This document shows positions 8,572 through 44,494 of a DNA stretch of 51,111 bases, in pieces; the first letter of the stretch is position 1, and each line of letters begins with the position of its first letter. Where the stretch lies: contig CAZVAZ010000002.1 of NCBI GenBank assembly GCA_964625235.1, positions 7,378 to 58,488 on the forward strand. The letters are read 5' to 3'. The notes under the pieces were generated by a model. It did no database searches. It saw only the letters and a program-made list of their open reading frames with translations, and had not been told where the DNA came from. This DNA is from an uncultured Hyphomicrobiales bacterium. GTDB lineage: Bacteria; Pseudomonadota; Alphaproteobacteria; Rhizobiales; JAJFHR01. The translations under genes and the position numbers were made by a program.

Positions 8572-8660
8572 CCCGGGACAAATGTTATGGAAAATAAACC
8601 CCCCACGGCGACACCCCCTGACCAACCTGATCATTAATAAACCAAACGGAATCTAGCATC

Positions 8661-9587: not shown

Positions 9588-9633
9588 CGGGATGGCGCAA
9601 GTAATTCATTGATACCAATAGAGGAGGCTTGTT

Positions 9634-12678: not shown

Positions 12679-12888
12679 ATGGCCAGATTGAGTTGTGAGA
12701 AGCGGTCGGAATTAGAGAGTTTCTGGCATTCCCATCATGATGAGTGGGAACACAGTGCCTTGAATCAGCGGGAATATTGCGAAGTGCACGGCCTGCCACT
12801 GAAGCGATTTGGTAACTGGCGGGCGAAGTTCAAGACTGAGTGCGGCTGTTCAGGGCAAGCTGCTCTACCGACGCGGTGGGAGGCTTAG
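12679..12888 (+). CDS. IS66-family accessory HTH protein (small first ORF)
   Basis: The 69-aa product MARLSCEKRSELESFWHSHHDEWEHSALNQREYCEVHGLPLKRFGNWRAKF resembles the short HTH ORFs of IS66 elements. A homologous fragment recurs at 14270-14400. Confidence 0.55.
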   Translation: MARLSCEKRSELESFWHSHHDEWEHSALNQREYCEVHGLPLKRFGNWRAKFKTECGCSGQAALPTRWEA

Positions 12889-12892
12889 ACAT

Positions 12893-19263: not shown

Positions 19264-19460
19264 TGCGCTTTAGTCTTTCACACTTTCACTTGTTGTAATC
19301 CTCTGATGACGGATTTGGGGCTTGCAGGATATCGTCAGGCCGCAACGAATTTTTTGCGAATAAGAATTATGATTTGGATTTTCATCCATGAAAATCAAAT
19401 AATCTAACTTTATCGGGAAGCGGTCTATTATAATGAATTGACATAGCAAATCACAATAGC

Positions 19461-20846: not shown

Positions 20847-21021
20847 TTTCTTTCCCCCAGTATTTGGTAAAAAAACACGTTCGCTCGTTGCTTTGGTGCA
20901 TAGTTCTTTTACCTGATCGCTGACAACAGTGTTGCATGTTTGCTGCAAGTAATGCTGATTGATTGTGAATGGCTGTATTGACATCAAAAACATTTAATTT
21001 TCAAGAGTAAAATTTCCGTTT

Positions 21022-22434
21022 TCAATCCGTAATATTAATTCGCTTCCCCTGTGCAAGTTGGTCATCATAGTCGCGGCGCACTTTGCGGGCGCGGCCGAGG
21101 ATGGTGCGGTCTATGCGCTGTGACGGGGGCATCGGTTCGGGCGTCCACCAGGCCGGGTGGGTCAACAGATGCAGGCGCTGATGACCTTGTGCAATGACCT
21201 TGTCCATCGCCTCGAAACGCCAGTAACCATTTGAATCAGAGCAATAAACATAATCGCGCTGGAAATTTTCCCCATAGGCGTTGATCAGCCCGCAGATCTC
21301 GTCAGCTTTGAAGTCGAGCAGGTTGGAGCGATCCGGGTTATGCCAGCTTACCGCGCGGACAGGTTTTTGGAGAATAAGCTCGAGCAAGGATTTTTCGCGA
21401 GTGAGAGCTTGCTCCAGCCTTTCGCCGGTCCATTGTTTGACACCATAAGCATTGCCGTCAAAATGCAGACCGATCTCGTGGCCAAGATCGCGGATATGGT
21501 GCAACATCGTTTCTATTTCCGGCTCCAGAAGATTGTAGAAAGTGCAGCGCGGGTTGACAAAATAAGTAGCAACGGCACCTTCTTCAGCCTCAATCCTGGC
21601 TAACCGCGCCGCCCGGTGCATTGAAATATCAACATCATGGCGCCAGATCACATGTCGGTCTAAGCCACCATCGCCATAACGGGCAAAGCGGTAACCACCC
21701 GTCTTTAATTGACGTAAAATATCTCGGTATGCAGTTTCGGTGAAACCTTGAAAGGATGCACCGCCGCGGGTGATCAATGGTTTCTGTTGGTCAATTCTGA
21801 ACGTTTTTCCGTGAAGCTGCAAAGCGAGATTATTGTGGACACCGCCATCGAACGATTTGTATAGCCGCGCAAATTCAACATCATCAATCAAGGGTGTGAT
21901 CTCAGTGAAGTGCTTGAGATCGGCACGCGACGTTTTGATTTTACCCCAGCTAATACCATCGAGATCGACAAGCGGCTGGTTGTCCAGCAGGCGAGATCCA
22001 AGTCGCTCCAGCAAGATCATACCGGCTTCATTGGCACGGGTAAGTAAATCCGTTGGCAATTCATGGGGTCCAACCGCAAACACCTCAATGCCAACGATAG
22101 CACCGGCGTCAACCTCGGGTGTCATTAAATGAAGCGTTGCCCCATAGGTCTTCGCGCCACGATAGACGGCGTGATGATGAGGGTCGCGCCCGGGAAATTC
22201 CGGCGATGCCGCATGAAGGTTATAGGCAGGTTTGGTCAAACTGGCGAGAATTGATCGTGGAACGATAATGCCGCTGCCAAAACTCAACAACGTTGTCTGT
22301 GGACCAAGGCCGGAGGCTTCCAGGTCCGCTATGTCAGTTGCAACAACAACATTGGCATGATCCTCATAAATCGCCATAAGGCGCTCAAGCTGCTTGCCTT
22401 TCATGGGTGTTAAAACAATGATGGTTATGGTCAT
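21022..22434 (-). CDS. Fusion protein: N-terminal formyltransferase domain plus C-terminal polysaccharide-deacetylase-like (CE4) domain
   Basis: The N-terminal domain has the formyltransferase catalytic pattern NLHAASPEFPGRD...LMTPEVDAGAIVG (Asn-x-His...Asp). The C-terminal domain has RHDVDIS, HEIGLHFD and LLTHPAWW, as in divergent CE4/NodB-fold hydrolases. It is 470 aa. Confidence 0.7.
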   Translation of the reverse strand: MTITIIVLTPMKGKQLERLMAIYEDHANVVVATDIADLEASGLGPQTTLLSFGSGIIVPRSILASLTKPAYNLHAASPEFPGRDPHHHAVYRGAKTYGATLHLMTPEVDAGAIVGIEVFAVGPHELPTDLLTRANEAGMILLERLGSRLLDNQPLVDLDGISWGKIKTSRADLKHFTEITPLIDDVEFARLYKSFDGGVHNNLALQLHGKTFRIDQQKPLITRGGASFQGFTETAYRDILRQLKTGGYRFARYGDGGLDRHVIWRHDVDISMHRAARLARIEAEEGAVATYFVNPRCTFYNLLEPEIETMLHHIRDLGHEIGLHFDGNAYGVKQWTGERLEQALTREKSLLELILQKPVRAVSWHNPDRSNLLDFKADEICGLINAYGENFQRDYVYCSDSNGYWRFEAMDKVIAQGHQRLHLLTHPAWWTPEPMPPSQRIDRTILGRARKVRRDYDDQLAQGKRINITD

Positions 22435-23129
22435 ATTTTAGTGTTTTCAAAAACTTCATCAAGCGGGCGGCCATCGTACATCAGGTAATCAATGACGGAC
22501 AGACCGGAGATAAACCGCTCCGCTGGTCCGTAAACTTCGGGTTCAAACCCCTGATACTCAAGCCTGACACCATTAGCAGCAAACAACTCGTCCTGCTGAT
22601 ACCCACCAGCGCCACCACCTGCCAGGTAGGCATCGCCGCCTGCGGCCTTGACCAGCGAAATTAACAGCTCGGTCGCCTGGCCCTTGTGCGGTAACTCGGA
22701 TTGGCGAACCAGCGGGGTGGAAATTCCAAGCTTTGCAGCAATCACCTTAATAGCGGCAATATTGAAGCTGGCCAGATTGGTTTGCGGCGATTTGAACAGG
22801 GGTTCGAGTTTTTTCATCGTCTCATCGTAGCAGGGTGCTTTGCGATAATTGGCATCAAGCGTCTTCAATAGCTTGACCCGCCAAAATTGATCATCGTTGA
22901 TCTCAGCATCAAGAATTGGATTGCCACGCGCCTTGCTTTTTACATGACAAGTAGCCCAGCGCGCCTCGCCTTGAATTGCAATTTTTACCCGATTAACCCA
23001 GGTTCCAGAACCAGTGCGAGGATAATCGACCGCATCGAGAAACACGAATATATCAGCCCGCCTGATCTTGTCGAAATAGCCAAGCCAGGGGAAGAAGTTT
23101 GGCTGGTGGATTGCCACAAGTCCGCTCAT
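22431..23129 (-). CDS. WbqC-family protein (O-antigen-cluster-associated, function unknown)
   Basis: The N-terminus VAIHQPNFFPWLGYFDKIRRADIFVFLDAVDY is the hallmark of the WbqC-like family. It is 232 aa and overlaps both neighbours by 4 nt. Confidence 0.8.
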   Translation of the reverse strand: MSGLVAIHQPNFFPWLGYFDKIRRADIFVFLDAVDYPRTGSGTWVNRVKIAIQGEARWATCHVKSKARGNPILDAEINDDQFWRVKLLKTLDANYRKAPCYDETMKKLEPLFKSPQTNLASFNIAAIKVIAAKLGISTPLVRQSELPHKGQATELLISLVKAAGGDAYLAGGGAGGYQQDELFAANGVRLEYQGFEPEVYGPAERFISGLSVIDYLMYDGRPLDEVFENTKI

Positions 23130-24064
23130 TGCGTGTCCACCGATTTATCCATAAGGCGGAAACGGTTTGCGGTTGGCAAGACTGTGCCGTCAGCAAGTTC
23201 CGCCTCCTCAATCTCTATGACCCCGGAACCGCACGCGACCAATACTCCGCCGTTCGGGTCACGTCCGACAATCTGCCCCGGCACGGCTAAAATGTCATGA
23301 TCAAGGACAACTTCCCTGGCTCGCCACACGGTTAACTTCGTCCTCGCCTCCAAATACGAAAATGCCCCTGCCAGCGGTCGCGATGATGCGCGAACGAGCC
23401 GGGCGATATTTTCGGCCGAATGCGCCCAGTTGATAAGGCCGTCTTCCGGCCGCCGGGGGTGACAACGCAGAGGTAATACGCCAGAAGCATCCTGGCGTTC
23501 AGGAGCAAAAGAGGGATCTTCTACCCGCCCAAGCGCATCTGCAAACATCTCAGGCAGCACATTTTCCATCCAGTCATAGACATCCGAAATATAAATCATT
23601 TCATCGAGCAGTAATTTGCTGCGGACATAAATATCGCCAGCATCGACCATATCCGGGTCCATGGCGTGAACACACAAGCCCACATGATTTTCGCCGTTGA
23701 TTATCGCCCAGTTCGGGCAGGCATTGCCGCGATGGCGTGGAAGGTCGCCAGCGTGCCCGTTCAAGATGCCGTTTCTCAAAACATCACAGGTCTGGCGGCG
23801 GATCATCGTTGGCCAGTTGATAGAGATACCGATTTGTGCCCCGGATTGAACCAGTGCCTCACGGAAGTTGTCGTGGTTGACATCAGGGTCAAAGAGATAT
23901 GGAGCCTCAGTTTCTGCAGCAAGCTGGGCAAAGGCGTCTTGCCCGGCAGTGTATTCTGGAGGTGCCGGTGCCGTAGCCACAAGGGCCACCTCATGACCAT
24001 CGGCCAACAATTGCCGCACAACAGCAATCAGCCAGTGGGTGCGGCCAAGGACAGCTATTCGCAT
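23126..24064 (-). CDS. Sugar N-formyltransferase-like protein (Fmt/ArnA-N fold with a C-terminal domain)
   Basis: The catalytic pattern NGHAGDLPRHRG...MDPDMVDAGDIY is present. The likely start is MRIAVLG at 24064, 5 nt after the upstream stop. The ORF track extends to 24100. Confidence 0.8.
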   Translation of the reverse strand: MRIAVLGRTHWLIAVVRQLLADGHEVALVATAPAPPEYTAGQDAFAQLAAETEAPYLFDPDVNHDNFREALVQSGAQIGISINWPTMIRRQTCDVLRNGILNGHAGDLPRHRGNACPNWAIINGENHVGLCVHAMDPDMVDAGDIYVRSKLLLDEMIYISDVYDWMENVLPEMFADALGRVEDPSFAPERQDASGVLPLRCHPRRPEDGLINWAHSAENIARLVRASSRPLAGAFSYLEARTKLTVWRAREVVLDHDILAVPGQIVGRDPNGGVLVACGSGVIEIEEAELADGTVLPTANRFRLMDKSVDTQ

Positions 24065-24068
24065 GATC

Positions 24069-24779
24069 TCAACCTTCCCTTCCAACCTGCACGCCGCCAA
24101 GGCGGCAACTTTTTATGGTGCGGGATTTAACTTCGCTCAATAACGTCGACAATCGATCACGTGAGCCGCCGCAGCCTTGGGGTCGCCGCCGCTCCAGTAA
24201 CTTGACCGGATCATTCGTTTCGTTGCGGGCTGCTTCATAATCGGCAATTGTTTCCGTATTTAAAAAAGTGTGGATCGGGTGAATATCCACTACCAACAGG
24301 TCGATCACCTCAAGATGATCAACTGGTTCGCCTATTGAAGGGTCAAGCAGCCGCACGTCATCTTCCCAGCGAATTGGAACCTGAATGAGGCCACAAAAAT
24401 CACGCCAAGCGCCGATCTTTGAGCCTACGTGTGGCGGCAGCAGATAATTTGATTCATGCGTCATTCCAAACTTGCGAAACATGACACTTAACCGGCTCGA
24501 TCTCACCAATGAGTGGCTACGCACAGAGACTGCTTCGGGCACAATGTCCATCAACTTTTTAACTGTATCGCCTGCCTGCCCGGGCTTCCCATCCAGCAGC
24601 GGATTAAAATTTGGATGTATGCCCAGTTTATGCCCACCAGCGGCGCGTATTTCGGAAAGAACCGGCGTATCATGCGTAACAAACCATGTAGCCTTGGCAT
24701 CGTAGCGCTCAACCAGTTCAAGCGTATCCAAAATCACGGCGTCATGCGCCCAATCTATGTCAATTGTCAAACAAAGCAT
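24069..24779 (-). CDS. Polysaccharide-deacetylase-like hydrolase (divergent CE4, WbmS-like)
   Basis: LTIDIDWAHD ... ATWFVTHDTP ... HKLGIHPNF matches the pattern of small CE4-like proteins in O-antigen loci. It is 236 aa. Confidence 0.6.
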   Translation of the reverse strand: MLCLTIDIDWAHDAVILDTLELVERYDAKATWFVTHDTPVLSEIRAAGGHKLGIHPNFNPLLDGKPGQAGDTVKKLMDIVPEAVSVRSHSLVRSSRLSVMFRKFGMTHESNYLLPPHVGSKIGAWRDFCGLIQVPIRWEDDVRLLDPSIGEPVDHLEVIDLLVVDIHPIHTFLNTETIADYEAARNETNDPVKLLERRRPQGCGGSRDRLSTLLSEVKSRTIKSCRLGGVQVGREG

Positions 24780-24810: not shown

Positions 24811-25602
24811 TTACAGCCGAACATCGAAGAATGATTTCAGGCGGCGAAACCATCTTAGGCCGCCAATAAAAAACAGACCCGACAGGATCGTCATGTAAAC
24901 AAACATCCATAGTGGTGGCAATTGATTGTTTAGTATGGGCGCGCGGAAGAATTCGGCCAGGACGTAGAATGGATTGAATTGCAGGATTGGCTGGACCACC
25001 GTGGGATAAGCGGTCAGGGGATAGAAAATTGGTGACGTAAAGAGTATAGCCATCAATATATTGGGCAACGCCAGAGAAACATCACGCACGAAGACGTTTA
25101 GCGAGCTTAGAAAAAACCCGACACCTGAAACAAAGGTGAGCATCAGCATTACAGAAAACGGGAGTATTAAAACCGCCGCGCCTGGAATTTGACCATCTGC
25201 AAGCTTCAAAACAAGAAGAATTGCAAAAGATACAAATAGCGGAACAATCCCCAACATGGCTCCGACCATCGGTAAAAGCTCGGATTTGAAAGCTATATTC
25301 TTAACGATACCGGCGTTTGCGGCGACCGACCCGGTGGATGAGTTCAATCCTTCGCTCAGCGCCAGCCATGGCCCATATCCGCTAATCAGCCAGATCACGA
25401 ATGGCAGTGCTCCTTCCTGACCGGCCAGACGACCGGGAAACACGAAGGTGAACACAAAGACGAAAATACCCATCATCATGAGGGGGGAGAGTACCGCCCA
25501 CATCAGTCCCAGACCGGATCCAAGAAATCGATCCTTGAGAGTCATAACAAAAAGGTTTTTCAGCATGGCAAAATCACGCTGGTCGAAACCGGCAACAATC
25601 AT
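24811..25602 (-). CDS. wzm: ABC-2 type polysaccharide export permease
   Basis: A 263-aa protein with about 6 TM helices. The ABC-2 family look (LGLMWAVLSPLMMMGIFVFVF...) and a 4-nt overlap with the downstream-facing ATPase gene support the call. Confidence 0.85.
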   Translation of the reverse strand: MIVAGFDQRDFAMLKNLFVMTLKDRFLGSGLGLMWAVLSPLMMMGIFVFVFTFVFPGRLAGQEGALPFVIWLISGYGPWLALSEGLNSSTGSVAANAGIVKNIAFKSELLPMVGAMLGIVPLFVSFAILLVLKLADGQIPGAAVLILPFSVMLMLTFVSGVGFFLSSLNVFVRDVSLALPNILMAILFTSPIFYPLTAYPTVVQPILQFNPFYVLAEFFRAPILNNQLPPLWMFVYMTILSGLFFIGGLRWFRRLKSFFDVRL

Positions 25603-26822
25603 GAATTTGTCCCTTTAATCCGCCGGGTTTTGATTCTTGGTGGATGAAACAGAAGCGGCACACCGCCGCGCTGGCCTTCCTCATCAACGACCTCAAAAAC
25701 CCGCGCCGCTCCATAGCACACGCCCAGATGGTCAACAAGGTCTACATCCAGGCGATAAAGATCTGCGCCAAGTATGAAAGGATCAAGTGTTACCTGCACG
25801 TTGAAGGCTCCTCGATCAGGCAGGGTGTGGCCAGCCTGGTGCAGGCTGGTGTGCCAGATTTTCCGGCCATCAACGCGCATCATGGTGATCTGTATATCGC
25901 AATCGGGCGTTCCATCGAGCAGCGTTCCGGAGATTTCAAAGGTTACCGGCTTAAAAGCCGCCACCCCCGCCTGACGAATTTCACCCTCCTGGCGGATGAT
26001 AACGTCTTCTATAATGCCGATTTCGGACCGGTTTTCGATCGCGCGCCCGGCGCCAAACTTACGCTTCAGCACGGCCTCATCGGACTGCCTTACAGATGCT
26101 TCGTAGGCTGCTGTGACCTTTTGCGGATCGCCGTCCATGACCAGTCGGCCGTTGTCGATCCACAGACATCGCGTGCACATTTCAACGATTGCCTTGGTTG
26201 CATGTGTTACCAGAATGACGATGCGGCCTCGTTCCGCCACCGCTTTCATGCGACGGCTGGCCTTTTGTGCAAAAAACACGTCACCAACCGCCAGTGTCTC
26301 GTCCAGGATCAGAATGTCCGGCTCAATGAGGGTACCCATGGAAAACGCCAGTCGCGCCTTCATGCCGGAAGAATAGGTACGCACCGGCCGATCAATGTAG
26401 TCACCCAGTTCGGTGAACTCGATAATCTCTTCGGCGACGGCGTCAATCTGCTCTTTGGTGCGCCCGTGTATGGTGGCATCAAGATAAATGTTCTCGCGAC
26501 CTGTCATCTCATTTTTTAAAACAGCACCAATGGTGAGCATGGCATGAATGTCACCTTCAATCTCAATGGTGCCGGAGGTTGGTTCGGTTATGCCGGCCAG
26601 CAATGACAAAAGCGTTGTCTTGCCGGCACCGTTGGGGCCGATAATCCCCACGCGCTCGCCCTCGCTGATCGAAAAGCTGATGTCATCAAGAGCATGCACC
26701 TTGCGGATACTTTCCTGAGGCTGGCCAAGACGCAAAGCCTCTAAGAGTGAAACCGCCCTGCCACTGACATTTGCCAGGGAAAAGACCTTTGAAAGACCAT
26801 TTACTTTAATCGAGGCTTTCAT
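25599..26822 (-). CDS. wzt: Polysaccharide export ABC ATPase with a C-terminal glycan-binding-type extension
   Basis: Walker A GPNGAGKTT, signature YSSGMKARLAFS, Walker B ILILDETLAVGD and H-loop LVTHA are present. A beta-rich C-terminal domain of about 150 aa resembles those of Wzt proteins. Confidence 0.85.
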   Translation of the reverse strand: MKASIKVNGLSKVFSLANVSGRAVSLLEALRLGQPQESIRKVHALDDISFSISEGERVGIIGPNGAGKTTLLSLLAGITEPTSGTIEIEGDIHAMLTIGAVLKNEMTGRENIYLDATIHGRTKEQIDAVAEEIIEFTELGDYIDRPVRTYSSGMKARLAFSMGTLIEPDILILDETLAVGDVFFAQKASRRMKAVAERGRIVILVTHATKAIVEMCTRCLWIDNGRLVMDGDPQKVTAAYEASVRQSDEAVLKRKFGAGRAIENRSEIGIIEDVIIRQEGEIRQAGVAAFKPVTFEISGTLLDGTPDCDIQITMMRVDGRKIWHTSLHQAGHTLPDRGAFNVQVTLDPFILGADLYRLDVDLVDHLGVCYGAARVFEVVDEEGQRGGVPLLFHPPRIKTRRIKGTNS

Positions 26823-28003
26823 GAGCTTTTCACCGACCAGTTGGATGCAAGTGTAAGCCCCTGTCCCGGCGTACCAGAAACTTCGATCGGCAACCCCGTG
26901 CCGCTGAGCCAGCCAAAACCGTCAAGTACGATAAACTGCCGGGGAAATTCGGGGTTGGGTATGGTCATTTGCAGACTGATCTGATAGCTGCCCGGTTCCA
27001 GCGGCAAATGGGGAACCGCAATTTTCAGTTCGTAGCGTCCAGGGGCCTCGCCGACAGTCGTCATTTCACGTGACATTAATGCGGTTTCCCAGCCAAATCC
27101 CGGTTGCAGCCGCTCAATAACCATCCCCACCCCGATCTTCGCTGCTGTTTCTATCTCAACTTCAGTTGTTAAAATGAAATCTTCACCAGGTCGGGGCTTT
27201 GCGGGGAACTGCGGGGCACTGACAAAATGCGCAACTCCTTTATGGTGATCTTCCCTAGCGCTTTCACCATAAAGATAGTGGCGCGCCGCTTTTTCGGCCG
27301 GTCCGGAAAAAACCACTTTGCCTTTGTCGAGGATGTGTGCGGTCTCGCACAGTTTGACAACGGCAGCCCAATCATGAGTAACCAGGATGCCGGAAGCCCC
27401 GCCTGACACTCGGTCGCGCAACCGCCGCCAACATTTGGACTGGAAGTGCTGATCGCCAACCGACAGGATTTCATCAAGCAGATAAACATCATAATGACCT
27501 GCGGTTGCTGTGGAGAAAAACAACCGCGCACCCATGCCGGCCGAATAGGTAAGGACGGGATCGTCAAAACGATCTCCCAGCTCGGAGAAGTCATGAATGT
27601 CTGCGATCATGTCTATCTGCTGGTTTGTACTGAACCCATGCACCGTCAAGAGCCGCAGTGCATACTGACGCCCGGTAAGCTCCGGGTGCCCGACTAGGCC
27701 AAGCTCGTAAAGGCCGGAAAGAGCACCGTATACTTTCGCTCGACCCTGATCGCAGTCATAAACACCGCCGATAACCCGCAATAGTGTGGATTTTCCGGCA
27801 CCGTTGCGCCCCAAAATACCGACGAACTGCCCTTTTGGCACGTCGAAAGAAACGTCCGTGAGCGCATCGAAAACCGGTAAACCGGCACCCCCTGCAAACA
27901 TCAGGCGCCATGCGTTGCCCGCATCCACCAAAGCAAAGCTCTTTGAAACCCCCTGGCATGTAACTGCAATCATGGAGAGGGACGAGTTTTTGAGGATTTT
28001 CAT
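26819..28003 (-). CDS. Second polysaccharide export ABC ATPase (Wzt-like) with a different C-terminal extension
   Basis: Walker A GRNGAGKST, signature YSAGMGARLFFS, Walker B VYLLDEILSVGD and H-loop LVTHD are present. The C-terminal domain of about 150 aa is unrelated in sequence to that of the neighbouring Wzt. Confidence 0.8.
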   Translation of the reverse strand: MKILKNSSLSMIAVTCQGVSKSFALVDAGNAWRLMFAGGAGLPVFDALTDVSFDVPKGQFVGILGRNGAGKSTLLRVIGGVYDCDQGRAKVYGALSGLYELGLVGHPELTGRQYALRLLTVHGFSTNQQIDMIADIHDFSELGDRFDDPVLTYSAGMGARLFFSTATAGHYDVYLLDEILSVGDQHFQSKCWRRLRDRVSGGASGILVTHDWAAVVKLCETAHILDKGKVVFSGPAEKAARHYLYGESAREDHHKGVAHFVSAPQFPAKPRPGEDFILTTEVEIETAAKIGVGMVIERLQPGFGWETALMSREMTTVGEAPGRYELKIAVPHLPLEPGSYQISLQMTIPNPEFPRQFIVLDGFGWLSGTGLPIEVSGTPGQGLTLASNWSVKSS

Positions 28004-29200: not shown

Positions 29201-29254
29201 TGCGAACCTGAATAGGTTTCCAATATTTCTGCATTATACCTGCTGAAAATCCGT

Positions 29255-30288: not shown

Positions 30289-31053
30289 TCAAAGTAGGCC
30301 TTTTTCATCGGATGGCCTGTCGGGGCGCCACAGCCGAATGCAAACTTTCTGACCATGAAGATAAAAATATGCCGGGTAATTCTCAGGGTCGGCCGCGCGA
30401 ATATCATTGACCAGTTCAATTAAAGGGCGGTTGGGGTCGATTTCAGAATGCTCCGGTTTTCGATCCGCGAATCGTTTACCGCTGAAACCTTGTTGCCTGG
30501 CACCGGTTGCGCCCTTTTCTGTAAACAATCTCAAAGCCTTGACCACAACCTGCGGCTCAAACTCTCTAGTCTTTTGCACCAGACTTGTTCCCGTTTCAAA
30601 CGGGGAAAGAGAAAAACTTTCTTGAAGAATGATCGGCCCTGTATCCACTCCCTGATCAATCATATGAACGGTCACACCACTTTGCTTTTCGCCGTTGGCA
30701 ATAACCCAGTTGAGAGAACGCGCACCGGGATAATCCGGCAGCAATGTGCCATGTACATTGAGACAGGGGCCAACATGGCGCAAAAAGGCAGCTGGAAAAA
30801 TAAATCCGAACCCTACCGACAGGCAGGCGGCATTTCGCAACTCCGCAGATGGTTCAGACAGGTTTTGCCGGCGCAAAACAGTAACTGGCAATCCCAGCTT
30901 TTCGGCCAGAATTACCGTAGGTTTTACTTTTGGCCATTTTTCCGGATCGGTGACATAGACAGCCGCAATTTTGATATCGTCATGAATCAACCGTTGCAGC
31001 ACGGCTTCACGGGGACCGCTTGAAAAATAATGCCATTGTTTTGTTGTTGTCAT
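30289..31053 (-). CDS. Formyltransferase-fold protein (third copy in the locus)
   Basis: The catalytic pattern LNVHGTLLPDYPGARS...MIDQGVDTGPII is present. It is 254 aa. Confidence 0.8.
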   Translation of the reverse strand: MTTTKQWHYFSSGPREAVLQRLIHDDIKIAAVYVTDPEKWPKVKPTVILAEKLGLPVTVLRRQNLSEPSAELRNAACLSVGFGFIFPAAFLRHVGPCLNVHGTLLPDYPGARSLNWVIANGEKQSGVTVHMIDQGVDTGPIILQESFSLSPFETGTSLVQKTREFEPQVVVKALRLFTEKGATGARQQGFSGKRFADRKPEHSEIDPNRPLIELVNDIRAADPENYPAYFYLHGQKVCIRLWRPDRPSDEKGLL

Positions 31054-31073
31054 GTTCTTGCATATAAAGCGCT

Positions 31074-32228
31074 CTATTGTACGCCTCGATCCGTCGTTAT
31101 CAGGGCAGAAAATGGCACCACGTAAAAATAAGGATAATCAGCAGTCAGACTTTCTGCACTTTGCTCAAGAATGCGTTTATCCTGTATGTATACATGATAG
31201 GCATAAGGCGCTTCAATAGCACCCCATTTTTTCTTGAAACGATAGACACCGGTTTGCGTCAACCAGGTTCCACCCCAGTTCCACAAGCGACGACCTTCTT
31301 TTTGAGCATCGCACATGGCTTGCAACAAAATGACAGACATGGGTTCCAAAGGTCGCGCTGATGACAGGGTTACCGGCATAATATAGTCAGCAAACTGCTT
31401 GAAAAAAAATACCAGCAGCGCGGCAATCGGCATGCCATTGTGCCGCGCTACATAAATCCGGTAGTCTTTATCCGGCCTTAGGACATCCCTCAAAGCATCG
31501 AAAAAAGCCACCGGTTTGCTTTTGCCATTAATAGCCACCATGTTTTCCAAGTGACACGTTTCCAAAAAACCAATGGCGTTGTTTTCGACCGAAACCTGCA
31601 CACCTTCTCGTTCAGCCTTGCGGATATTGCGCCTAGCGGAGCTGTGGATTTTTGAAAAGAGCGTACTAGCAAATGGCATGTCTGGAGTATCAGTATCAAG
31701 CAGTGTCCATTGGCCAATACGTTGATCCTGCAAGGCAGCCCCCGCCCAGCGATTTTTTTGCGCATGGACAATATTTGAAAGCTTGAACGAATTCGAAATT
31801 ACAGTGGCGGTAGCCACACCCGGCTCATCAAGTTTTGAGCGAAACCACGCCTCAAGAACCGGAACGGCGACTGGGTCGGTGGCGATAATGTCTCCATGAC
31901 TACCGAAAAAGGGTAAGGAATTAATAACCTGACCACAGGGTCCAGCACGAGTCATGGTTGGCAGTGCGCCAACTACCTGGCTGTTTCGCCAGGCCAGGGC
32001 GTAGTCAACTTGCGCCTCAACGCAGGCCATCAGCAAATCCTTGTACGGCAAACCATGATATAAGGTAGCCGCCGGGCATGTGTCCAAAAATGCCTGGTAA
32101 GCATTATGATCGGCAGCCGTTTCAAGACAACGGACGTGTACGGCCTCGCTGTTCGTCGACAATGGGTCACTTTTTTGTTGCCTGTTGTTCACTGTACTGT
32201 TTCCCCACCAAGAAACACCCGGCACCAC
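31074..32228 (-). CDS. FemAB-like / GNAT-fold (aminoacyl)transferase of the EPS-locus-associated type
   Basis: The C-terminal WNWGGTWLTQTGVYRFKKKWGA is typical of FemAB-family proteins in exopolysaccharide loci. The ORF overlaps the upstream asnB-like stop by 40 nt, so the true start may be internal (for example GTG at 32192). Confidence 0.55.
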   Translation of the reverse strand: MVPGVSWWGNSTVNNRQQKSDPLSTNSEAVHVRCLETAADHNAYQAFLDTCPAATLYHGLPYKDLLMACVEAQVDYALAWRNSQVVGALPTMTRAGPCGQVINSLPFFGSHGDIIATDPVAVPVLEAWFRSKLDEPGVATATVISNSFKLSNIVHAQKNRWAGAALQDQRIGQWTLLDTDTPDMPFASTLFSKIHSSARRNIRKAEREGVQVSVENNAIGFLETCHLENMVAINGKSKPVAFFDALRDVLRPDKDYRIYVARHNGMPIAALLVFFFKQFADYIMPVTLSSARPLEPMSVILLQAMCDAQKEGRRLWNWGGTWLTQTGVYRFKKKWGAIEAPYAYHVYIQDKRILEQSAESLTADYPYFYVVPFSALITTDRGVQ

Positions 32229-34066
32229 TGCTCGAAGCTCAGGAATGACCAGATCAGCAGTCTGTGGTTGGCTTTTTTTGACATATGTTCTTCGACAATT
32301 TTGCGGATGAAGTCGGGGTTAAGATAATCCGCTGAAGCGAGGTCTTTTGACAGCAGGGTTTCGCGTACATACTCCGCATTCTCACCACGATACCACGAAG
32401 CTTCAGGCGATGAAAACCCCTGTTTGCGGCGTTGCATGACCTCGCGCGGAACCAGATGCGCCATGGCCTGGCGCAGACAGGACTTACCGCCTGAAAAGGA
32501 TTCTTGAGCAATCAGTTTCTTTTTGACTTCATCTTCGTCAATATTGAGCATATGTTTGAGATCAGCCAGCTTGTGCTCGACTGGCAGGCGCATGGCGAAA
32601 TCAACCAGCGCATTATCAAGAAACGGAAAGCGCTCTTCGAGACCGCTGGCCATCGCCAGCTTGTCGCCAACAAGGAGAAGACCAGATAGGAAGGTGCGGC
32701 ATTCAAAATAAAGCGATGCTGAAATTTGCTCTTCCGGCGTTTGATAACCAATGTTACCGGCATTGGCAAACACACCGGCGAACACATTGAACATCTCATC
32801 TTTGTTTTCAGTACCGGAATGAAACAGCTCATCGCGGTCTTTTGCTGTGGTCAGCCGCTGCCAGAAACCGTAGTAGTTTTCCAGAAAGTTGCGCTTGTCG
32901 AGTGAGCGAAAAATACGGTAGTAGCGCCATGGATAGCCACCGAACAATTCATCGCCGCCCGCTCCTGACAGACAAACCTTGACGAATTTCGAGGCGAGAC
33001 GAGCGATATAGTAATTGGGGTAGCTCATGCCAAGCCGTAAATCCTCAAGCTGCCAGATCACCCGTGGCAGCGACCAGCGGATGTCTCCAGCATTCATCAC
33101 CTGCTCATAATGCTCAGTCTTGTAGGTGTAGGCCATCAACTCGGCGGCGCGGCGTTCGTCAAATGAGGCTTCGATGCCGTCTACTCGCGACATTTCAAAG
33201 CCCGCCGTAAAGGTTTGCATGCGTGGCACGTGATTGGCTGCCAGTGCGACGATTGAGCCTGAATCCATACCGCCGGAAAGATAGGCACCAACAGGAACAT
33301 CCGAGACCAGTTGCCGTTCCACTGCCTCTCCCATCAGTCGTTCCAAAGTAGCGACGCTTTCCCTGGCATCGACTGGTTCGGTCTGTGAAAAGTCATAATC
33401 CCAATAGGTCTCGAGCCGCTCGCCTTGCGCATCGATGACAAGTATTGATGCCGGTGGAAGGTGTTCAACGTCGCTAAACAGCGTGTGGTGGCGAAACAGG
33501 TTTTGAAAGGTAAAATATTCGCGAAGAGCTGCATCATTGACCTGGACAGTGAAATCAGGATGTTTCATGAACGCCTTGATTTCGGAAGCAAAGGCCAGAC
33601 CATTTCGCCTCCGCCACAAGTAAAGCGGCTTGACGCCATAGCGGTCACGCACTAAAAACAGCCGCTTTTCATCAGCGTCCCACAACGCAAACGCTGCCAT
33701 GCCGTCCAATCGGCCGGCAAGTTTCTGAATGCCCCAGATCGCATAACCGGCGATCAGGACTTCAGTGTCGGAACGGCTTTTGAAGGTCCAGCCTGCCTTT
33801 TCCAACTCCAGCCGTAATTCCCGGAAATTGTAAATCTCTCCGTTATAGACAACGACGATGCGCCCGTCCGGCGACTTCATCGGCTGGTGAGCTGCATCGG
33901 TCAGATCGATGATCGACAATCTCTGATGGCCCAGCCCCAGGGTGCCATCCACATAAACCCCTTTGTCATCAGGTCCACGATGAGCCAACGCATCGCGCAT
34001 GGCAATCAGCACCTGTTCGTCGACGGGTGCGCCATCAAAATTGAAAATACCGACTATGCCGCACAT
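32189..34066 (-). CDS. Asparagine synthase-like glutamine-dependent amidotransferase
   Basis: The N-terminal MCGIVG provides the Cys2 nucleophile. The PP-loop is YLSGGMDSGSIV. It is 625 aa. Confidence 0.9.
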   Translation of the reverse strand: MCGIVGIFNFDGAPVDEQVLIAMRDALAHRGPDDKGVYVDGTLGLGHQRLSIIDLTDAAHQPMKSPDGRIVVVYNGEIYNFRELRLELEKAGWTFKSRSDTEVLIAGYAIWGIQKLAGRLDGMAAFALWDADEKRLFLVRDRYGVKPLYLWRRRNGLAFASEIKAFMKHPDFTVQVNDAALREYFTFQNLFRHHTLFSDVEHLPPASILVIDAQGERLETYWDYDFSQTEPVDARESVATLERLMGEAVERQLVSDVPVGAYLSGGMDSGSIVALAANHVPRMQTFTAGFEMSRVDGIEASFDERRAAELMAYTYKTEHYEQVMNAGDIRWSLPRVIWQLEDLRLGMSYPNYYIARLASKFVKVCLSGAGGDELFGGYPWRYYRIFRSLDKRNFLENYYGFWQRLTTAKDRDELFHSGTENKDEMFNVFAGVFANAGNIGYQTPEEQISASLYFECRTFLSGLLLVGDKLAMASGLEERFPFLDNALVDFAMRLPVEHKLADLKHMLNIDEDEVKKKLIAQESFSGGKSCLRQAMAHLVPREVMQRRKQGFSSPEASWYRGENAEYVRETLLSKDLASADYLNPDFIRKIVEEHMSKKANHRLLIWSFLSFEQWCRVFLGGETVQ

Positions 34067-34110
34067 CGACTATGCCTCAATCTGCAATGAAAAAATGTCC
34101 ACCGGGATAT

Positions 34111-35262
34111 TCAACGAAGCTTCTCCAGAGCGGTAACAACACGATCCACATCTTCAGCCCCCATGTGGTTATGCAGGGGCAGTGCGATGCTTTGGGCCTC
34201 GACCCGCGTTGCCACCGGATAATCAGCAGGATTGGTTGCAAATGTTTCGCGGTAGATTTTCAATCCGACAACTGAATGAGTACCCGGACGCCCGGCGATG
34301 CCACTGTCCTGGAGGTGTTGAAGAATATCATTGCGGCGGGGAACACCGGCGACATCATCAACCATCACAACATAGGCCTGTAATGCGTGGTCATAGTTTT
34401 GGGGCCTGAGCGGTGGTGTAATCCAGTTTAAGTTCTTCAGGCGCTCGTCATATAAGTCCGCAAGCTCCTGGCGCTCAGCAATAAAGCGGTCAAGTTTCTG
34501 AAGCTGGATGGTGGCGACCGCCGCCTGAATATCCGTCATGCGATAATTGAAGCCAAAGACCGTAAAATCCGGCAACTCATAGGGTTTGGGACCACGATGG
34601 CGCACCTCTTCAGAAATGCTGGCACCGTGATTGCGATACATATCCAATTTGGCCGCTAACCCGTCATCATCAGTGGTTACAACACCGCCTTCGCCACAAG
34701 TTATGGATTTGCGCGGATGCAGGGAAAAACAGCCAATATGGCCGAGTGAGCCCGCCGGTCTGCCCTTGTAGGCCGCCCCGGCAGCACAGGCTGCATCCTC
34801 TATTACAACAACATGATCTGGCAAAACCGCCGCCAAAGCATCCATGTCGGCTGCCAACCCGAAAAGATGCACCGGGATGATTGCCCTGGTGCGGGGCGTT
34901 ACAGCGCGCTCGACAGCTTCTGGATCAAGGTTGTAGGTGTCGGTGCAAATATCGACAAAGACCGGTATCGCACCACATTGAACAACCACATTAGCGGTGG
35001 CCACCCAGGTGAATGCGGGCACTATTACTTCGTCGCCTTTTCCAACCCCGGCGGCAACAAGGGCCAGGTGCAGAGCCGTTGTGCATGAAGTCGTCGCCAG
35101 TGCGTGGCGCACGTTGTGGCGCCTGGCAAATCCAGCTTCGAATTTACCCACCCACGGTCCTTGCGTCAGCCAGCCGGATTCAAGCACCGAACGGACGGCT
35201 TCAACTTCTTCTTCGCCCAGACAAGGCTTGGCAATCGACAGGAAGGCTTGCTGTTTGGTCAT
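34111..35262 (-). CDS. DegT/DnrJ/EryC1/StrS-family sugar aminotransferase
   Basis: Family motifs include LESGWLTQGPWV, DEVIVPAFTWVATAN and the PLP-lysine region CFSLHPRKSITCGEGG. The ATG at 35262 follows GGTGAG. The ORF track's TTG start is at 35283. Confidence 0.9.
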   Translation of the reverse strand: MTKQQAFLSIAKPCLGEEEVEAVRSVLESGWLTQGPWVGKFEAGFARRHNVRHALATTSCTTALHLALVAAGVGKGDEVIVPAFTWVATANVVVQCGAIPVFVDICTDTYNLDPEAVERAVTPRTRAIIPVHLFGLAADMDALAAVLPDHVVVIEDAACAAGAAYKGRPAGSLGHIGCFSLHPRKSITCGEGGVVTTDDDGLAAKLDMYRNHGASISEEVRHRGPKPYELPDFTVFGFNYRMTDIQAAVATIQLQKLDRFIAERQELADLYDERLKNLNWITPPLRPQNYDHALQAYVVMVDDVAGVPRRNDILQHLQDSGIAGRPGTHSVVGLKIYRETFATNPADYPVATRVEAQSIALPLHNHMGAEDVDRVVTALEKLR

Positions 35263-35283
35263 AATAATCTCACCAATTCTCAA

Positions 35284-37236
35284 TCACGAATAAAGTTCGT
35301 CAGTCTCAGGTGGCAATCCTTTTGCAACACGATCTATCACCATTTCGAAACGACGTGCGCACACGTCGGCGGCAAACCATTTGAGCGCAAATGTTCGCGA
35401 TTGCACAGACATTTCCTGCCGTTTTTCCGGGTCGTTTACCAGATCTCTCAACACACCTTCGATTGTCTGCTCAGTGGCATTCAGGGCGGGCGCTTCGGCA
35501 ATGGTGCGAAGCTCGGGCATTCCCTCACCTTGCCCGGGCATCAGCCGTGTGATTACGGGTTTTCCCTGCATGAAGCTTTCGCGTCCATTGGCGCCAATCC
35601 GACCGTAGTTCAGCTGATCAACAACGATATCGGCTTGCGCCTTGTAGTAGCGGACCTTCTGGATTGGAAGCTTGGAGGCAAAAAACAGTTTAACGCCAAG
35701 CCCTTCTTCCTGCAATCTGGCAATAGCCGCCTCGATCGCAGTGCTGCCCTTGATGTCACGACCACCAACGCGTCTGGTTTCAAGGTTCCCCACCGCATGG
35801 TAAATCAGGATTTCGCCTGGTTTGCGCTCGATGCGCATTTCTTCCGGCACTTCGAGATCGGGGGTCCAGTATTCCGGATCAAGGGCGGATGTAACTGGCC
35901 CGCGCACGAACTTCGGCCCAACACGATCGCCAACCGCCCAATCTCCTTCGATGCCGATCCAGTCACAGACATCGTCCAGGGTGTGTGCCCATGCTTCGTT
36001 TTTAGCGTCGCTACAAATATCAGGGCGAAGTTCCCAGACACAGCGCCCGCAAACATTATCTGAAATTTTCCTGACTGCTGATTGAGTTGCACCATCAGCG
36101 CAACCGCTCACTGAATACCCGATGATGGTGCGGTGGCGGCGAAGTTCCATAAAATCCCACGGAAATCTGGTTCTGTTCTTGGCGTTGTCATTGTTTTCCA
36201 GGAAAAAACTGGGCTGGTATTGACCGTAAAAATGCAAGGCTCCAAAGCGTTCCGGGACGGTCTGCAAAAATTCACAAATCTGCCGGTGCCGGATTGCGGG
36301 ATCGTCGTGATAAAGGTTGATATCTTCGCCAAAATAAAACTGCTGCTGCGCGCTATCCGGAGGCTCTACAGACACGGTGATCGCGTCCCATCCGCGTTTT
36401 TTTAACGCAGCAGCAAGCGTGTTGAAGTGATAGTAATTATTATGGAGAAATACCACGGATCGCGATTTTGGCTGGGCTGGCACCAGCTTCGGCAACAGGT
36501 CGGCTGCATCGAAAGGCAGGGGCACACCTTTTTCAGTACCTGCAAGCTTTGGCAGATATGCCGCCTGCCCATTGGCCATAAAATCGATAAGGTCGGGCTC
36601 ACGCTTGAGGGCATCCATAGTATCGTTGTAGAGGCGTTGCTCCGCTTCAGTGGTGTCCAGCTGCATATCATCCATATGCAAAGTGGATTTCTTCAACTTC
36701 ATTGCATCAAAAATAAGTCGCGCACCTTTGGGATACCTGCTGATAAATTCCAGTAGCTGCGACTGATCTTCAGGCGGGCCAAGACGGCCTTGTGCATCCA
36801 GACGCTGCAAGACAACCCGCTGAACCTTGCCAGCGTTAAGATCGTTGCATATCGCTTCACCGGAAATGCCACTAAATCCTTCCGGTATCTTTCCACCTTC
36901 CCCGATTGCTACAAATCGCAGAGTTTCTTTTCGGCGCACACCGAAAACCCGACCTTCCGTTGAAAATGCTTGCTGCCAAAAAGGATCGTTCTTGACGCCT
37001 TCAAAAAATGCTTGGCGAAGGGCCTCCAGCTCCTCATTCAATTTATTGTTGGAAATCTGTAACTCCAGCACTTCTTGGTTTAATTTCTCAAGCGAGGAAT
37101 TAACAGAAGTTCGCCAATCATTAACAAAAGCCCGCCACTCACGAAACCTTCGCAGCAGGTTGATCTTAGCACAGGTCATACGAATTCGTTCACCTAACGA
37201 TACGTCATTTCGCTGTGGGCAATCATTTTTGTTCAT
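35284..37236 (-). CDS. Large hypothetical protein: N-terminal coiled coil, an unknown middle domain and a C-terminal GT-B (GT4-like) glycosyltransferase-like domain with a Cys cluster
   Basis: The heptad-like stretch is SLEKLNQEVLELQISNNKLNEELEALRQAF. The C-terminal GRIGANGRESFMQGKPVITRL resembles the GT4 E-x7-E/acceptor region. A cysteine cluster reads SGCADG...CGRCVWELRPDIC. It is 650 aa and I recognise no family for residues 90-270. Confidence 0.4.
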   Translation of the reverse strand: MNKNDCPQRNDVSLGERIRMTCAKINLLRRFREWRAFVNDWRTSVNSSLEKLNQEVLELQISNNKLNEELEALRQAFFEGVKNDPFWQQAFSTEGRVFGVRRKETLRFVAIGEGGKIPEGFSGISGEAICNDLNAGKVQRVVLQRLDAQGRLGPPEDQSQLLEFISRYPKGARLIFDAMKLKKSTLHMDDMQLDTTEAEQRLYNDTMDALKREPDLIDFMANGQAAYLPKLAGTEKGVPLPFDAADLLPKLVPAQPKSRSVVFLHNNYYHFNTLAAALKKRGWDAITVSVEPPDSAQQQFYFGEDINLYHDDPAIRHRQICEFLQTVPERFGALHFYGQYQPSFFLENNDNAKNRTRFPWDFMELRRHRTIIGYSVSGCADGATQSAVRKISDNVCGRCVWELRPDICSDAKNEAWAHTLDDVCDWIGIEGDWAVGDRVGPKFVRGPVTSALDPEYWTPDLEVPEEMRIERKPGEILIYHAVGNLETRRVGGRDIKGSTAIEAAIARLQEEGLGVKLFFASKLPIQKVRYYKAQADIVVDQLNYGRIGANGRESFMQGKPVITRLMPGQGEGMPELRTIAEAPALNATEQTIEGVLRDLVNDPEKRQEMSVQSRTFALKWFAADVCARRFEMVIDRVAKGLPPETDELYS

Positions 37237-37240
37237 GTTG

Positions 37241-40929: not shown

Positions 40930-40943
40930 GAATTTGATGGCTC

Positions 40944-44002: not shown

Positions 44003-44004
44003 AA

Positions 44005-44475: not shown

Positions 44476-44494
44476 ACAACACCGGCTCCGTCAA

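What the first reader, a model, noticed from the sequence alone, without database searches (positions are those of the whole stretch)
21022..24779. Formyltransferase-deacetylase fusion, WbqC, a second formyltransferase and a second CE4-like hydrolase form a tight sub-module
Four consecutive overlapping or abutting genes encode alternating formyltransferase-fold domains (NLHAASPEFPGRD; NGHAGDLPRHRG) and CE4-like domains (RHDVD/GLHFD; IDIDWAHD/GIHPNF), with WbqC in between. In the L-Ara4N lipid A pathway, ArnA formylates and the CE4-fold ArnD later deformylates the same amino sugar, which gives transient N-formyl protection around a transfer step. Here one polypeptide (470 aa) carries both activities, the pair is duplicated, and a third formyltransferase lies at 30289-31053. 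Fusing the writer and the eraser of the same mark is unusual. It suggests either a protection-deprotection cycle or a domain repurposed for a different acyl group.
Basis: partly seen in the sequence, partly recalled or inferred. Interest (0 to 1): 0.7.

Follow-up and report, generated by a model that had tools for sequence, protein, structure and literature searches.

The report
Amino-sugar deacetylase–formyltransferase editing module
Four tightly packed genes in an O-antigen-type polysaccharide locus most likely strip the acetyl group off sugar amines and put a formyl group in its place, using a large, uncharacterised deacetylase family that other bacteria fuse to other "writer" enzymes.

Summary
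Four translationally coupled minus-strand genes encode a WbmS-like deacetylase, an ArnA-N/Fmt-like formyltransferase (FT), WbqC, and a 470-aa FT fused to a second hydrolase domain. AlphaFold2 and Foldseek show the fusion's N-half is a complete small sugar N-formyltransferase. Its Asn-His-Asp triad is kept in 62 of 63 relatives. The C-half is a divergent CE4/NodB-like barrel with invariant His and Asp residues at the strand ends.

The ArnA/ArnD "write then erase the same mark" reading is not supported, and neither is "the pair is duplicated". The two FTs share no detectable sequence similarity, and the two hydrolases belong to different families.

The C-domain family is large (5,312 clusters at 50% identity) and has no Pfam model. 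It occurs alone or next to a separate FT. It also occurs fused to FT, GNAT, LbH acyltransferase or sulfotransferase domains.

This pattern favours N-substituent exchange: remove an N-acetyl, then formylate the freed amine. That is the same logic as animal NDST. WbmS plus FT is a separate conserved cassette, also found in the Bordetella wbm O-antigen locus. WbqC is the tightest partner of the fusion and its function is unknown. No biochemistry exists for any of this. I rate it a new variant of a known kind, of moderate interest.

The parts
21760..22434 (-). Residues 1-225 of the 470-aa protein. A complete small sugar N-formyltransferase domain of the WbtJ/VioF/WbkC type, with triad N72, H74, D109.
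   Evidence: Pfam PF00551. AF2 model pLDDT 93.3. Foldseek hits to 4nv1, 4yfv, 5vyr and 4pzu with TMt 0.65-0.73. Triad kept in 62 of 63 relatives.
21022..21759 (-). Residues 226-470 of the same protein plus the stop codon. A divergent CE4/NodB-like metal-hydrolase barrel, the putative amino-sugar N-deacetylase. Motifs: RHDVD (265-269), GHEIGLHFD (318-326), SWHNP (363-367), SDSNGYW (399-405), LTHP (424-427).
   Evidence: AF2 model pLDDT 93.1, pTM 0.91. The top 12 Foldseek PDB hits include 11 CE4-family entries (one an annotated pseudoenzyme), best E 1.8e-6, probability 1.0, TM 0.4-0.58. Invariant H266, D267, D269, H319, H324, H365, D400, H426 over 80 sequences from many phyla. 17 of 34 relatives weakly hit PF01522.
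22431..23129 (-). WbqC-family protein of unknown function. The tightest conserved partner of the fusion, with ATGA overlaps on both sides.
   Evidence: PF08889, E 1e-58. Lies 0-57 bp upstream of 18 of 20 FT-CE fusions and of all three GNAT-CE fusions checked; present in 60 of 79 loci. No PDB relative.
23126..24100 (-). ArnA-N/Fmt-like formyltransferase with N and C domains and an intact N-x-H...D triad. The likely real start is the ATG at 24064.
   Evidence: PF00551 plus PF02911. ArnA 5j63, E 4e-27, with the triad aligned. Junction sequence. 39% identical to the FT that overlaps wbmS in Bordetella.
24069..24779 (-). WbmS-like polysaccharide deacetylase. A second CE4-related family, distinct from the fusion's C-domain.
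   Evidence: PF22537, E 5e-50. PDB 3hft (Bordetella WbmS), E 8e-44. An FT gene lies within 150 bp in 13 of 21 loci, and the two overlap in Bordetella.
30289..31053 (-). Third formyltransferase, Fmt-like, 254 aa. It is paired with the FemAB-like gene at 31074-32228 and is not part of the four-gene block.
   Evidence: PF00551, E 5e-26; TIGR00460, E 1e-27. The FemAB-FT pair is conserved in L001, L005, L008, L009, L010, L019 and L066.
32189..38209 (-). Context genes that co-occur with the deacetylase family: AsnB-like amidotransferase (32189-34066), DegT aminotransferase (34111-35283), a 650-aa ORF with no Pfam hit, and an SDR (37241-38209).
   Evidence: Pfam. 50-56% identical to the SDR-DegT-AsnB trio of the Bordetella wbm locus. 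Present in 34-45 of 79 loci.
24811..28003 (-). Wzm permease plus two tandem Wzt-like ATPases. This marks an ABC-transporter-dependent pathway, so the glycan is completed in the cytoplasm.
   Evidence: ORFs. 40-45% identical to the Bordetella Wzt/Wzt/Wzm genes.

Best explanation
The block is an N-substituent editing module for amino sugars of an ABC-transporter-dependent, Bordetella-wbm-like O-polysaccharide.

Proposed mechanism of the 470-aa protein: its CE4-like C-domain hydrolyses an N-acetyl group and exposes a free amine. That acetyl is either inherited from UDP-GlcNAc or added earlier in the pathway. The fused N-terminal formyltransferase then formylates the amine with N10-formyl-tetrahydrofolate. 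The net change is NAc to NFo.

WbmS plus the ArnA-like FT is a second, independently evolved cassette with the same logic. It probably acts on another amine or another residue, for example the chain-terminating sugar.

All four proteins lack signal peptides and membrane segments, so editing happens in the cytoplasm, on the nucleotide sugar or on the lipid-linked glycan.

Shown: the folds, conserved catalytic residues, fusion partners and gene linkage.
Inferred: the substrate, that acetyl is the group removed, the order of the two reactions, and the role of WbqC (unknown).
For: 1. Both halves look catalytically competent. The FT triad N72/H74/D109 is kept in 62 of 63 relatives. H266, D267, D269, H319, H324, H365, D400 and H426 are invariant across 80 CE domains at 36-90% identity, and all sit at the C-terminal ends of strands.
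2. Fold assignments: sugar N-formyltransferases for the N-half and the CE4 family for the C-half.
3. The hydrolase is the constant element and the writer varies. It is fused to FT (15 of the 73 long forms), GNAT at either end (4), an LpxD-like LbH acyltransferase (P0380) and a sulfotransferase (P0431). All 73 keep the hydrolase invariants. A CE4 hydrolase cannot erase a sulfate, so in that fusion it must act before the writer.
4. Where the hydrolase is unfused, an FT gene is often directly adjacent (10 of 42 within 250 bp). In L024 a domain of the same FT type follows the hydrolase as a separate piece.
5. The hydrolase co-occurs with SDR-DegT-AsnB genes. These are shared at 50-56% identity with the Bordetella wbm locus, whose O-chain is capped by a 2,3,4-triamino-galacturonamide derivative (PMC2615507).
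6. A distant homologue lies between an LbH N-acyltransferase gene and acetamidino-forming genes on a Sphingomonas plasmid.
7. No hydrophobic segments in any of the four proteins.
8. There is precedent for the logic. NDST1 couples a (beta/alpha)7 His-His-Asp deacetylase domain to an N-sulfotransferase, and the deacetylase acts first (PMC10864358).
Against: There is no biochemical or glycan-structure evidence for any member.

The canonical second metal-binding His of CE4 motif 2 (position 328) is not conserved; it is G, A, S, D or E. The metal site is therefore atypical, and I could not inspect the model coordinates.

TM-scores to CE4 structures are modest (0.4-0.58), and one group of top hits is a CE4 pseudoenzyme.

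To my knowledge, known CE4 enzymes act on polymers or lipid-linked sugars, not nucleotide sugars.

The sulfotransferase and LbH fusions are each seen in a single short metagenomic contig.

The commonest long form carries a roughly 200-aa helical extension of unknown role, not a transferase.

The role of WbqC, the tightest partner, is unexplained.
Confidence: 0.55

Rival explanations
1. Transient protection. The FT domain formylates a newly made amine, as ArnA does to pull an unfavourable transamination forward. An intervening step follows, possibly catalysed by WbqC. The CE4-like domain then removes the same formyl group, leaving a free or further modified amine.
For: A DegT aminotransferase is in the operon. 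WbqC is always adjacent and could be the intervening step. ArnD is the best, though non-significant, PDB sequence match of the domain profile, and shares the HE(I/T)GLH motif.
Against: Two opposing activities on one soluble cytoplasmic polypeptide would be futile unless they are strictly gated. The same hydrolase is fused to GNAT, LbH and sulfotransferase domains, which protection by formyl does not explain. ArnD is absent from the top 50 structural matches and scores far below its family cutoff (13 bits against 382). Among the ORFs I annotated, I saw no ArnC- or ArnT-like transfer step.
Confidence: 0.15
2. The two domains act on different atoms or different molecules and are fused only for co-localisation. 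For example, the CE4-like domain removes an O-acetyl group or another ester or amide (CE4 includes acetylxylan esterases), or it deacetylates the finished lipid-linked polymer. Meanwhile the FT formylates an unrelated 4-amino group made by DegT.
For: CE4 contains both O- and N-deacetylases; hits include the acetylxylan esterase 7fbw. The family often occurs alone or with a non-enzymatic-looking helical extension. The locus also contains a DegT-made amine that needs an acyl group.
Against: The recurrent fusion partners are mostly transferases of types that commonly act on sugar amines: FT, GNAT, LpxD-like LbH and a sulfotransferase. This is most simply explained if the hydrolase supplies that amine. 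No O-acetyltransferase is evident in the block.
Confidence: 0.15
3. The C-terminal domain is a catalytically dead CE4-like sugar-binding domain that only presents the substrate to the formyltransferase.
For: The canonical His-His-Asp triad is incomplete. The CE4 pseudoenzyme BA3943 is among the best structural matches.
Against: Five His and three Asp residues are invariant across phyla and sit at the strand ends. That pattern is typical of an active site, not a lectin surface. The domain is widespread as a stand-alone protein.
Confidence: 0.05

Closest known systems
[quoted passage not shown]
   Same: One polypeptide couples a (beta/alpha)7 metal-dependent sugar N-deacetylase to a transferase that re-derivatises the freed amine, and the deacetylase acts first (PMC10864358). 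The same hydrolase family studied here also occurs fused to a sulfotransferase (P0431).
   Different: No sequence relationship was shown. NDST is a Golgi enzyme acting on a polymer. It has the canonical His-His-Asp triad, its writer is a sulfotransferase, and its domain order is deacetylase then transferase. Here the writer is a folate-dependent formyltransferase placed at the N-terminus, and the enzyme is cytoplasmic.
ArnA (N-terminal formyltransferase) plus ArnD (CE4-like deformylase) of the L-Ara4N lipid A pathway
   Same: A formyltransferase-fold enzyme and a CE4-related hydrolase in one amino-sugar pathway. FT324 matches the ArnA N-domain at E 4e-27.
   Different: ArnA and ArnD are separate proteins that act on the same formyl group before and after a lipid-transfer step. 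The fusion's FT domain is of the WbtJ/VioF type, not the ArnA type. Its hydrolase domain does not reach the ArnD model (13 bits against 382). There is no ArnA decarboxylase domain.
Bordetella wbm O-antigen locus (wbmS plus the adjacent formyltransferase)
   Same: WbmS (PDB 3hft) and an overlapping N+C-domain FT lie next to twin Wzt ATPases and Wzm. The locus also has SDR-DegT-AsnB genes 50-56% identical to those in this window. The region is predicted to modify the terminal O-antigen sugar (PMC3849452).
   Different: The Bordetella stretch I fetched has neither WbqC nor the FT-CE fusion. It has an ATP-grasp and a metallophosphoesterase where this window has FemAB-like and radical-SAM genes. 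In the papers I could search, WbmS has no reported function.
Small sugar N-formyltransferases (WbtJ, VioF, WbkC, Rv3404c)
   Same: The fold, size and catalytic triad of residues 1-225.
   Different: Those enzymes are stand-alone proteins of about 240 aa that act on 4-amino-4,6-dideoxy sugars made directly by an aminotransferase. None carries a deacetylase domain.

Membership tests
Formyltransferase superfamily (PF00551), sugar N-formyltransferase type: residues 1-225 of the 470-aa protein | Sequence model above the curated cutoff | tested here: met
   36.5 bits against a cutoff of 26.1. Only the C-half of the profile aligned.
Formyltransferase superfamily (PF00551), sugar N-formyltransferase type: residues 1-225 of the 470-aa protein | Catalytic Asn-His-Asp triad | tested here: met
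   N72, H74 and D109 are present and kept in 62 of 63 relatives.
Formyltransferase superfamily (PF00551), sugar N-formyltransferase type: residues 1-225 of the 470-aa protein | Complete FT fold including the small C-terminal subdomain | tested here: met
   Foldseek hits to WbtJ, VioF, WbkC and Rv3404c at TMt 0.65-0.73 over about 245 columns.
Formyltransferase superfamily (PF00551), sugar N-formyltransferase type: residues 1-225 of the 470-aa protein | N10-formyl-THF-dependent formylation of a sugar amine | not testable with these tools
   Needs an enzyme assay.
CE4 / NodB polysaccharide deacetylases (PF01522): residues 226-470 | Sequence model above the curated cutoff | tested here: not met
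   The window domain gives no hit. 17 of 34 relatives give sub-threshold hits, best E 0.0015.
CE4 / NodB polysaccharide deacetylases (PF01522): residues 226-470 | Distorted (beta/alpha) barrel fold | tested here: met
   The top Foldseek hits are CE4 members at probability 1.0, E 1.8e-6 to 4e-4, but with TM only 0.4-0.58.
CE4 / NodB polysaccharide deacetylases (PF01522): residues 226-470 | Asp-His-His metal triad plus catalytic Asp base and His acid (motifs 1, 2 and 5) | tested here: inconclusive
   Counterparts exist for motif 1 (H266-D267-x-D269), the first His of motif 2 (H324) and motif 5 (L424-T-H426). The second His of motif 2 (position 328) is variable. D326, H319 and H365 are conserved candidates to replace it. 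I had no access to coordinates to check the geometry.
ArnD deformylase (NF011923) | Equivalog model score | tested here: not met
   13.4 bits against a cutoff of 382. Profile against PDB 8t0j gives E 0.14.
ArnA bifunctional enzyme (NF005998) | FT domain plus C-terminal UDP-GlcA decarboxylase | tested here: not met
   FT324 scores 127.7 bits against a cutoff of 777 and aligns only to ArnA residues 14-289. There is no decarboxylase domain.
WbmS-like deacetylase (PF22537): 24069-24779 | Sequence model and similarity to the solved WbmS structure | tested here: met
   170.5 bits against a cutoff of 27. PDB 3hft, E 8e-44.
WbqC family (PF08889): 22431-23129 | Sequence model above the cutoff | tested here: met
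   199 bits against a cutoff of 21.3. The family has no known function.

The most novel reading that the evidence does not exclude
The un-modelled CE4-like family is a general cytoplasmic N-acetyl eraser. It lets bacteria and archaea replace the default acetyl on amino sugars with formyl, other acyl groups or even sulfate. That would make P0431-type proteins prokaryotic counterparts of NDST. In this window, two unrelated eraser-formyltransferase pairs plus a FemAB-like/Fmt-like pair would together edit several amino groups of one poly-amino uronamide sugar, of the kind that caps the Bordetella O-chain.
Probability: 0.35. Interest if true: 0.7.

Novelty: new variant of a known kind. Interest (0 to 1): 0.55.

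Why it matters
N-acyl decoration of amino sugars sets O-antigen serotype, antibody recognition and phage recognition. How bacteria obtain 2- or 3-formamido and other non-acetyl groups on sugars that start as UDP-GlcNAc is poorly understood.

If confirmed, this would be a dedicated deacetylase family of more than 5,000 clusters at 50% identity, spread across many bacterial phyla and archaea, with no Pfam model. Its fusions to interchangeable writer domains would supply the missing "erase" step.

It would also give annotators a rule for predicting N-substituents from gene content. And it would offer enzymes for chemo-enzymatic remodelling of amino sugars, including a possible bacterial deacetylase-sulfotransferase.

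Tried and rejected
- Single-sequence and profile searches of the C-domain against PDB sequences gave only noise-level CE4 and ArnD hits. A separate structure prediction of the domain was needed, because the FT half dominated the whole-protein fold search.
- hhalign of the C-domain family against the WbmS family gave probability 30% over 30 columns, so I rejected the idea that they are paralogues.
- BLASTP among the three FTs ruled out recent duplication.
- A WbqC profile against PDB found nothing. Literature searches for WbqC, WbmS and wbmQ/R found no functional data.
- The exact N-acyl pattern of the Bordetella capping sugar could not be retrieved. The Preston 2006 paper is not held, and searches for it returned nothing useful.
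- An apparent WbqC-CE fusion in L010 is an artefact of a run of N.
- Several 'long' ORFs in high-GC loci were over-extensions and were dropped.
- The alignment of all 150 representatives exceeded the residue limit for the Pfam scan, so only the 73 long forms were scanned.
- The roughly 200-aa C-terminal extension shared by 31 long forms has no Pfam match and was not pursued.


Full report
**1. Observation**

The window carries a long minus-strand operon, roughly 14.4-40.2 kb.
- 24069-24779 (236 aa)
- 23126-24100 (324 aa)
- 22431-23129 (232 aa)
- 21022-22434 (470 aa)

All the quoted peptide motifs are present.

Pfam, NCBIfam and PDB sequence searches identify them as follows:
- WbmS-like deacetylase: PF22537, E 5e-50; PDB 3hft, E 8e-44.
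- Formyltransferase with N and C domains, close to the ArnA N-domain and Fmt: 5j63, E 4e-27.
- WbqC: PF08889, E 1e-58.
- A protein whose residues 57-141 match Formyl_trans_N. Its C-half has no Pfam match and gives only a noise-level ArnD hit (E 0.035).

The junctions are tight. There are two ATGA overlaps. The WbmS stop is followed 4 nt later by a Shine-Dalgarno-preceded ATG, so the second FT probably starts at 24064. The third FT at 30289-31053 is real.

**2. The 470-aa protein**

An AlphaFold2 model built on 63 homologues is confident: pLDDT 93.3, pTM 0.82.

Foldseek against the PDB matches the first ~250 residues to the small sugar N-formyltransferases WbtJ, VioF, WbkC and Rv3404c, with TMt 0.65-0.73. 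The FT domain is therefore complete, not truncated. Its triad N72/H74/D109 is kept in 62 of 63 relatives.

I modelled the C-domain (residues 226-470) separately: pLDDT 93.1, pTM 0.91. Eleven of the twelve best PDB matches are CE4-family entries (chitin, peptidoglycan and xylan deacetylases, including one annotated pseudoenzyme). Probability is 1.0 and the best E is 1.8e-6, but TM is only 0.4-0.58.

I aligned 80 copies of the domain from Proteobacteria, Actinomycetota, Chloroflexota, Firmicutes, Bacteroidota, Cyanobacteria and archaea, at 36-90% identity. The following are invariant or nearly so: H266, D267, D269, S271, E282, Y300, H319, H324, H365, Y397, S399, D400, S401, G403, W405, L424, H426, W430. 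All lie at the C-terminal ends of predicted strands.

They map onto the five CE4 motifs as HDVD, HEIGLH, WHNP, DSNGYW and LTH. The canonical second metal-binding His (position 328) is not conserved. So this is a divergent CE4-like barrel with an atypical but strongly conserved active site. I could not inspect the coordinates.

**3. How common it is, and what it is fused to**

- The full fusion has more than 260 close homologues, mostly alphaproteobacterial (Bradyrhizobium, Hyphobacterium, Stellaceae and others). They are annotated only as 'formyltransferase family protein'.
- A scan of one genome per species found 502 species with a relative.
- An exhaustive profile search found 5,312 clusters at 50% identity with E<=1e-3, of which 3,167 have E<=1e-10.

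Architectures among the best 150 representatives:

| Form | Count |
|---|---|
| Stand-alone, about 250 aa | 77 |
| N-terminal FT fusion | 15 |
| GNAT fusion (two N-terminal, two C-terminal) | 4 |
| LpxD-like hexapeptide acyltransferase (P0380) | 1 |
| Sulfotransferase (P0431) | 1 |
| GT2 | 1 |
| HAD | 1 |
| Shared ~200-aa helical C-terminal extension, no Pfam | 31 |

All 73 long forms keep the hydrolase invariants. GNAT-hydrolase fusions were confirmed in three genomes.

**4. Gene linkage**

I ran tblastn of the window's proteins against 79 related loci:
- WbqC lies 0-57 bp upstream of 18 of 20 FT-CE fusions, and 0-42 bp upstream of the three GNAT-CE fusions. It is present in 60 of 79 loci.
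- Where the hydrolase is unfused, an FT gene is within 250 bp in 10 of 42 loci. In L024 an FT domain of the fusion's own type follows the hydrolase as a separate piece.
- AsnB-like amidotransferase, DegT aminotransferase and an SDR co-occur in 34-45 of 79 loci.
- The closest relatives of the window (L001 at 72% identity, and L009) have Wzm-WbqC-fusion with no WbmS/FT324 between them. L010 (85-98% identity) has the window's order. WbmS plus FT324 is therefore a separable two-gene cassette.
- That cassette recurs elsewhere. An FT lies within 150 bp of WbmS in 13 of 21 loci.

I fetched the Bordetella locus that encodes the crystallised WbmS. There, wbmS overlaps an N+C-domain FT next to twin Wzt ATPases and Wzm. 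SDR-DegT-AsnB genes in that locus are 50-56% identical to those in the window. WbqC and the fusion are absent.

The Bordetella O-chain is a GalNAc3NAcA(N) homopolymer capped by a 2,3,4-triamino-galacturonamide derivative (PMC2615507). The wbmO-Z region, which holds wbmS, is predicted to modify the terminal sugar (PMC3849452).

**5. Not a duplication**

- The fusion's FT domain and FT324 share no BLASTP similarity (E 2.3).
- The fusion's FT domain and FT254 share 33% identity over 89 residues.
- FT324 and FT254 share 26% over 149 residues.
- The two hydrolase families align only over ATYF...GHEIGLH, at hhalign probability 30%.

The window therefore holds two unrelated deacetylase-formyltransferase pairings, not a duplicated pair.

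**6. Mechanism**

The most economical reading is N-substituent exchange. The CE4-like domain removes an N-acetyl group, and the fused FT formylates the freed amine.

The key argument is comparative. The hydrolase is constant while its fused or adjacent partner varies among formyl-, acyl- and sulfo-transferases. A CE4 hydrolase cannot erase a sulfate, so in that fusion it must act upstream of the writer. This is the established logic of NDST1 (PMC10864358).

A distant homologue on a Sphingomonas plasmid sits between an LbH N-acyltransferase gene and acetamidino-forming genes. That is another N-editing context.

None of the four proteins has a hydrophobic segment, and the pathway depends on an ABC transporter. 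Editing is therefore cytoplasmic. Whether it occurs on the nucleotide sugar or on the lipid-linked glycan cannot be told from sequence.

The ArnA/ArnD-type protect-deprotect cycle remains possible if WbqC catalyses an intervening step. It does not explain the partner diversity, however, and ArnD similarity is at noise level.

Two weaker alternatives remain: the two domains act on unrelated groups, or the hydrolase domain is dead.

**7. Novelty**

I found no paper describing the fusion, the hydrolase family or WbqC function. Some pipelines already label stand-alone members 'polysaccharide deacetylase' or 'PgdA/CDA1 family'.

This is a new variant of a known kind: a CE4-superfamily deacetylase coupled to a transferase. 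It is widespread but uncharacterised, and it is testable in cultured Bradyrhizobium and Hyphobacterium strains.

Noticed in passing
window 24811-28003: One Wzm permease followed by two different Wzt-like ATPases in tandem (407 and 394 aa). The Bordetella wbm locus has the same arrangement (L080). This suggests a heteromeric ATPase, possibly one that reads the chain-terminal modification.
   Followed up: partly
window 30289-32228: A FemAB-family (aminoacyl-tRNA-type) transferase lies directly upstream of an Fmt-like 254-aa formyltransferase. The pair is conserved in L001, L005, L008, L009, L010, L019 and L066. It may add an N-formyl-aminoacyl decoration.
   Followed up: partly
window 28025-30268: A radical-SAM/SPASM protein is paired with a membrane-anchored methyltransferase. 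The pair recurs in L008, L011, L019 and L068. Its role in the glycan pathway is unknown.
   Followed up: no
window 35284-37236: A 650-aa ORF has no Pfam match. Its C-terminal ~400 residues are conserved in 25 of 79 related loci, and in a 432-aa no-Pfam ORF of the Bordetella wbm locus (34% identity).
   Followed up: partly
window 40435-41561: A NusG paralogue (164 aa) and a winged-helix regulator sit at the head of the polysaccharide operon. This suggests operon-specific antitermination.
   Followed up: no
window 42935-50982 and 12809-13342: The locus is flanked by mobile-element genes. On the right: DUF2793 plus XkdW (phage-tail-like), two DUF5681 genes, an N6/N4 DNA methylase, DUF2924 and a large serine recombinase. 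On the left: a transposase fragment. The GT and methyltransferase at 18424-20993 have lower GC (0.45-0.49) than their neighbours.
   Followed up: partly
P0431 (L082:681-2420) and P0380 (L083:2090-3745): The same CE4-like domain is fused to a sulfotransferase (579 aa) and to an LpxD-like hexapeptide acyltransferase (551 aa). Each was seen on one short metagenomic contig.
   Followed up: partly
31 representatives, e.g. P0374, P0408, P0410; L071:7962-9332: The commonest long form of the hydrolase family carries a shared, apparently helical, ~200-aa C-terminal extension with no Pfam match.
   Followed up: no
L084 (Sphingomonas hankookensis plasmid NZ_CP117027.1, locus 8067-10640): A distant homologue of the hydrolase lies between an LpxD-like N-acyltransferase and AglZ/HisF2. 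A WbpG-like amidotransferase and HisH (an acetamidino-forming module) and FucNAc-type genes are nearby.
   Followed up: partly
alignment A1, one of 63 FT-CE fusions: One homologue has Q, A and R in place of the FT triad N72, H74 and D109, while keeping most hydrolase residues. This may be a fusion with a dead formyltransferase.
   Followed up: no
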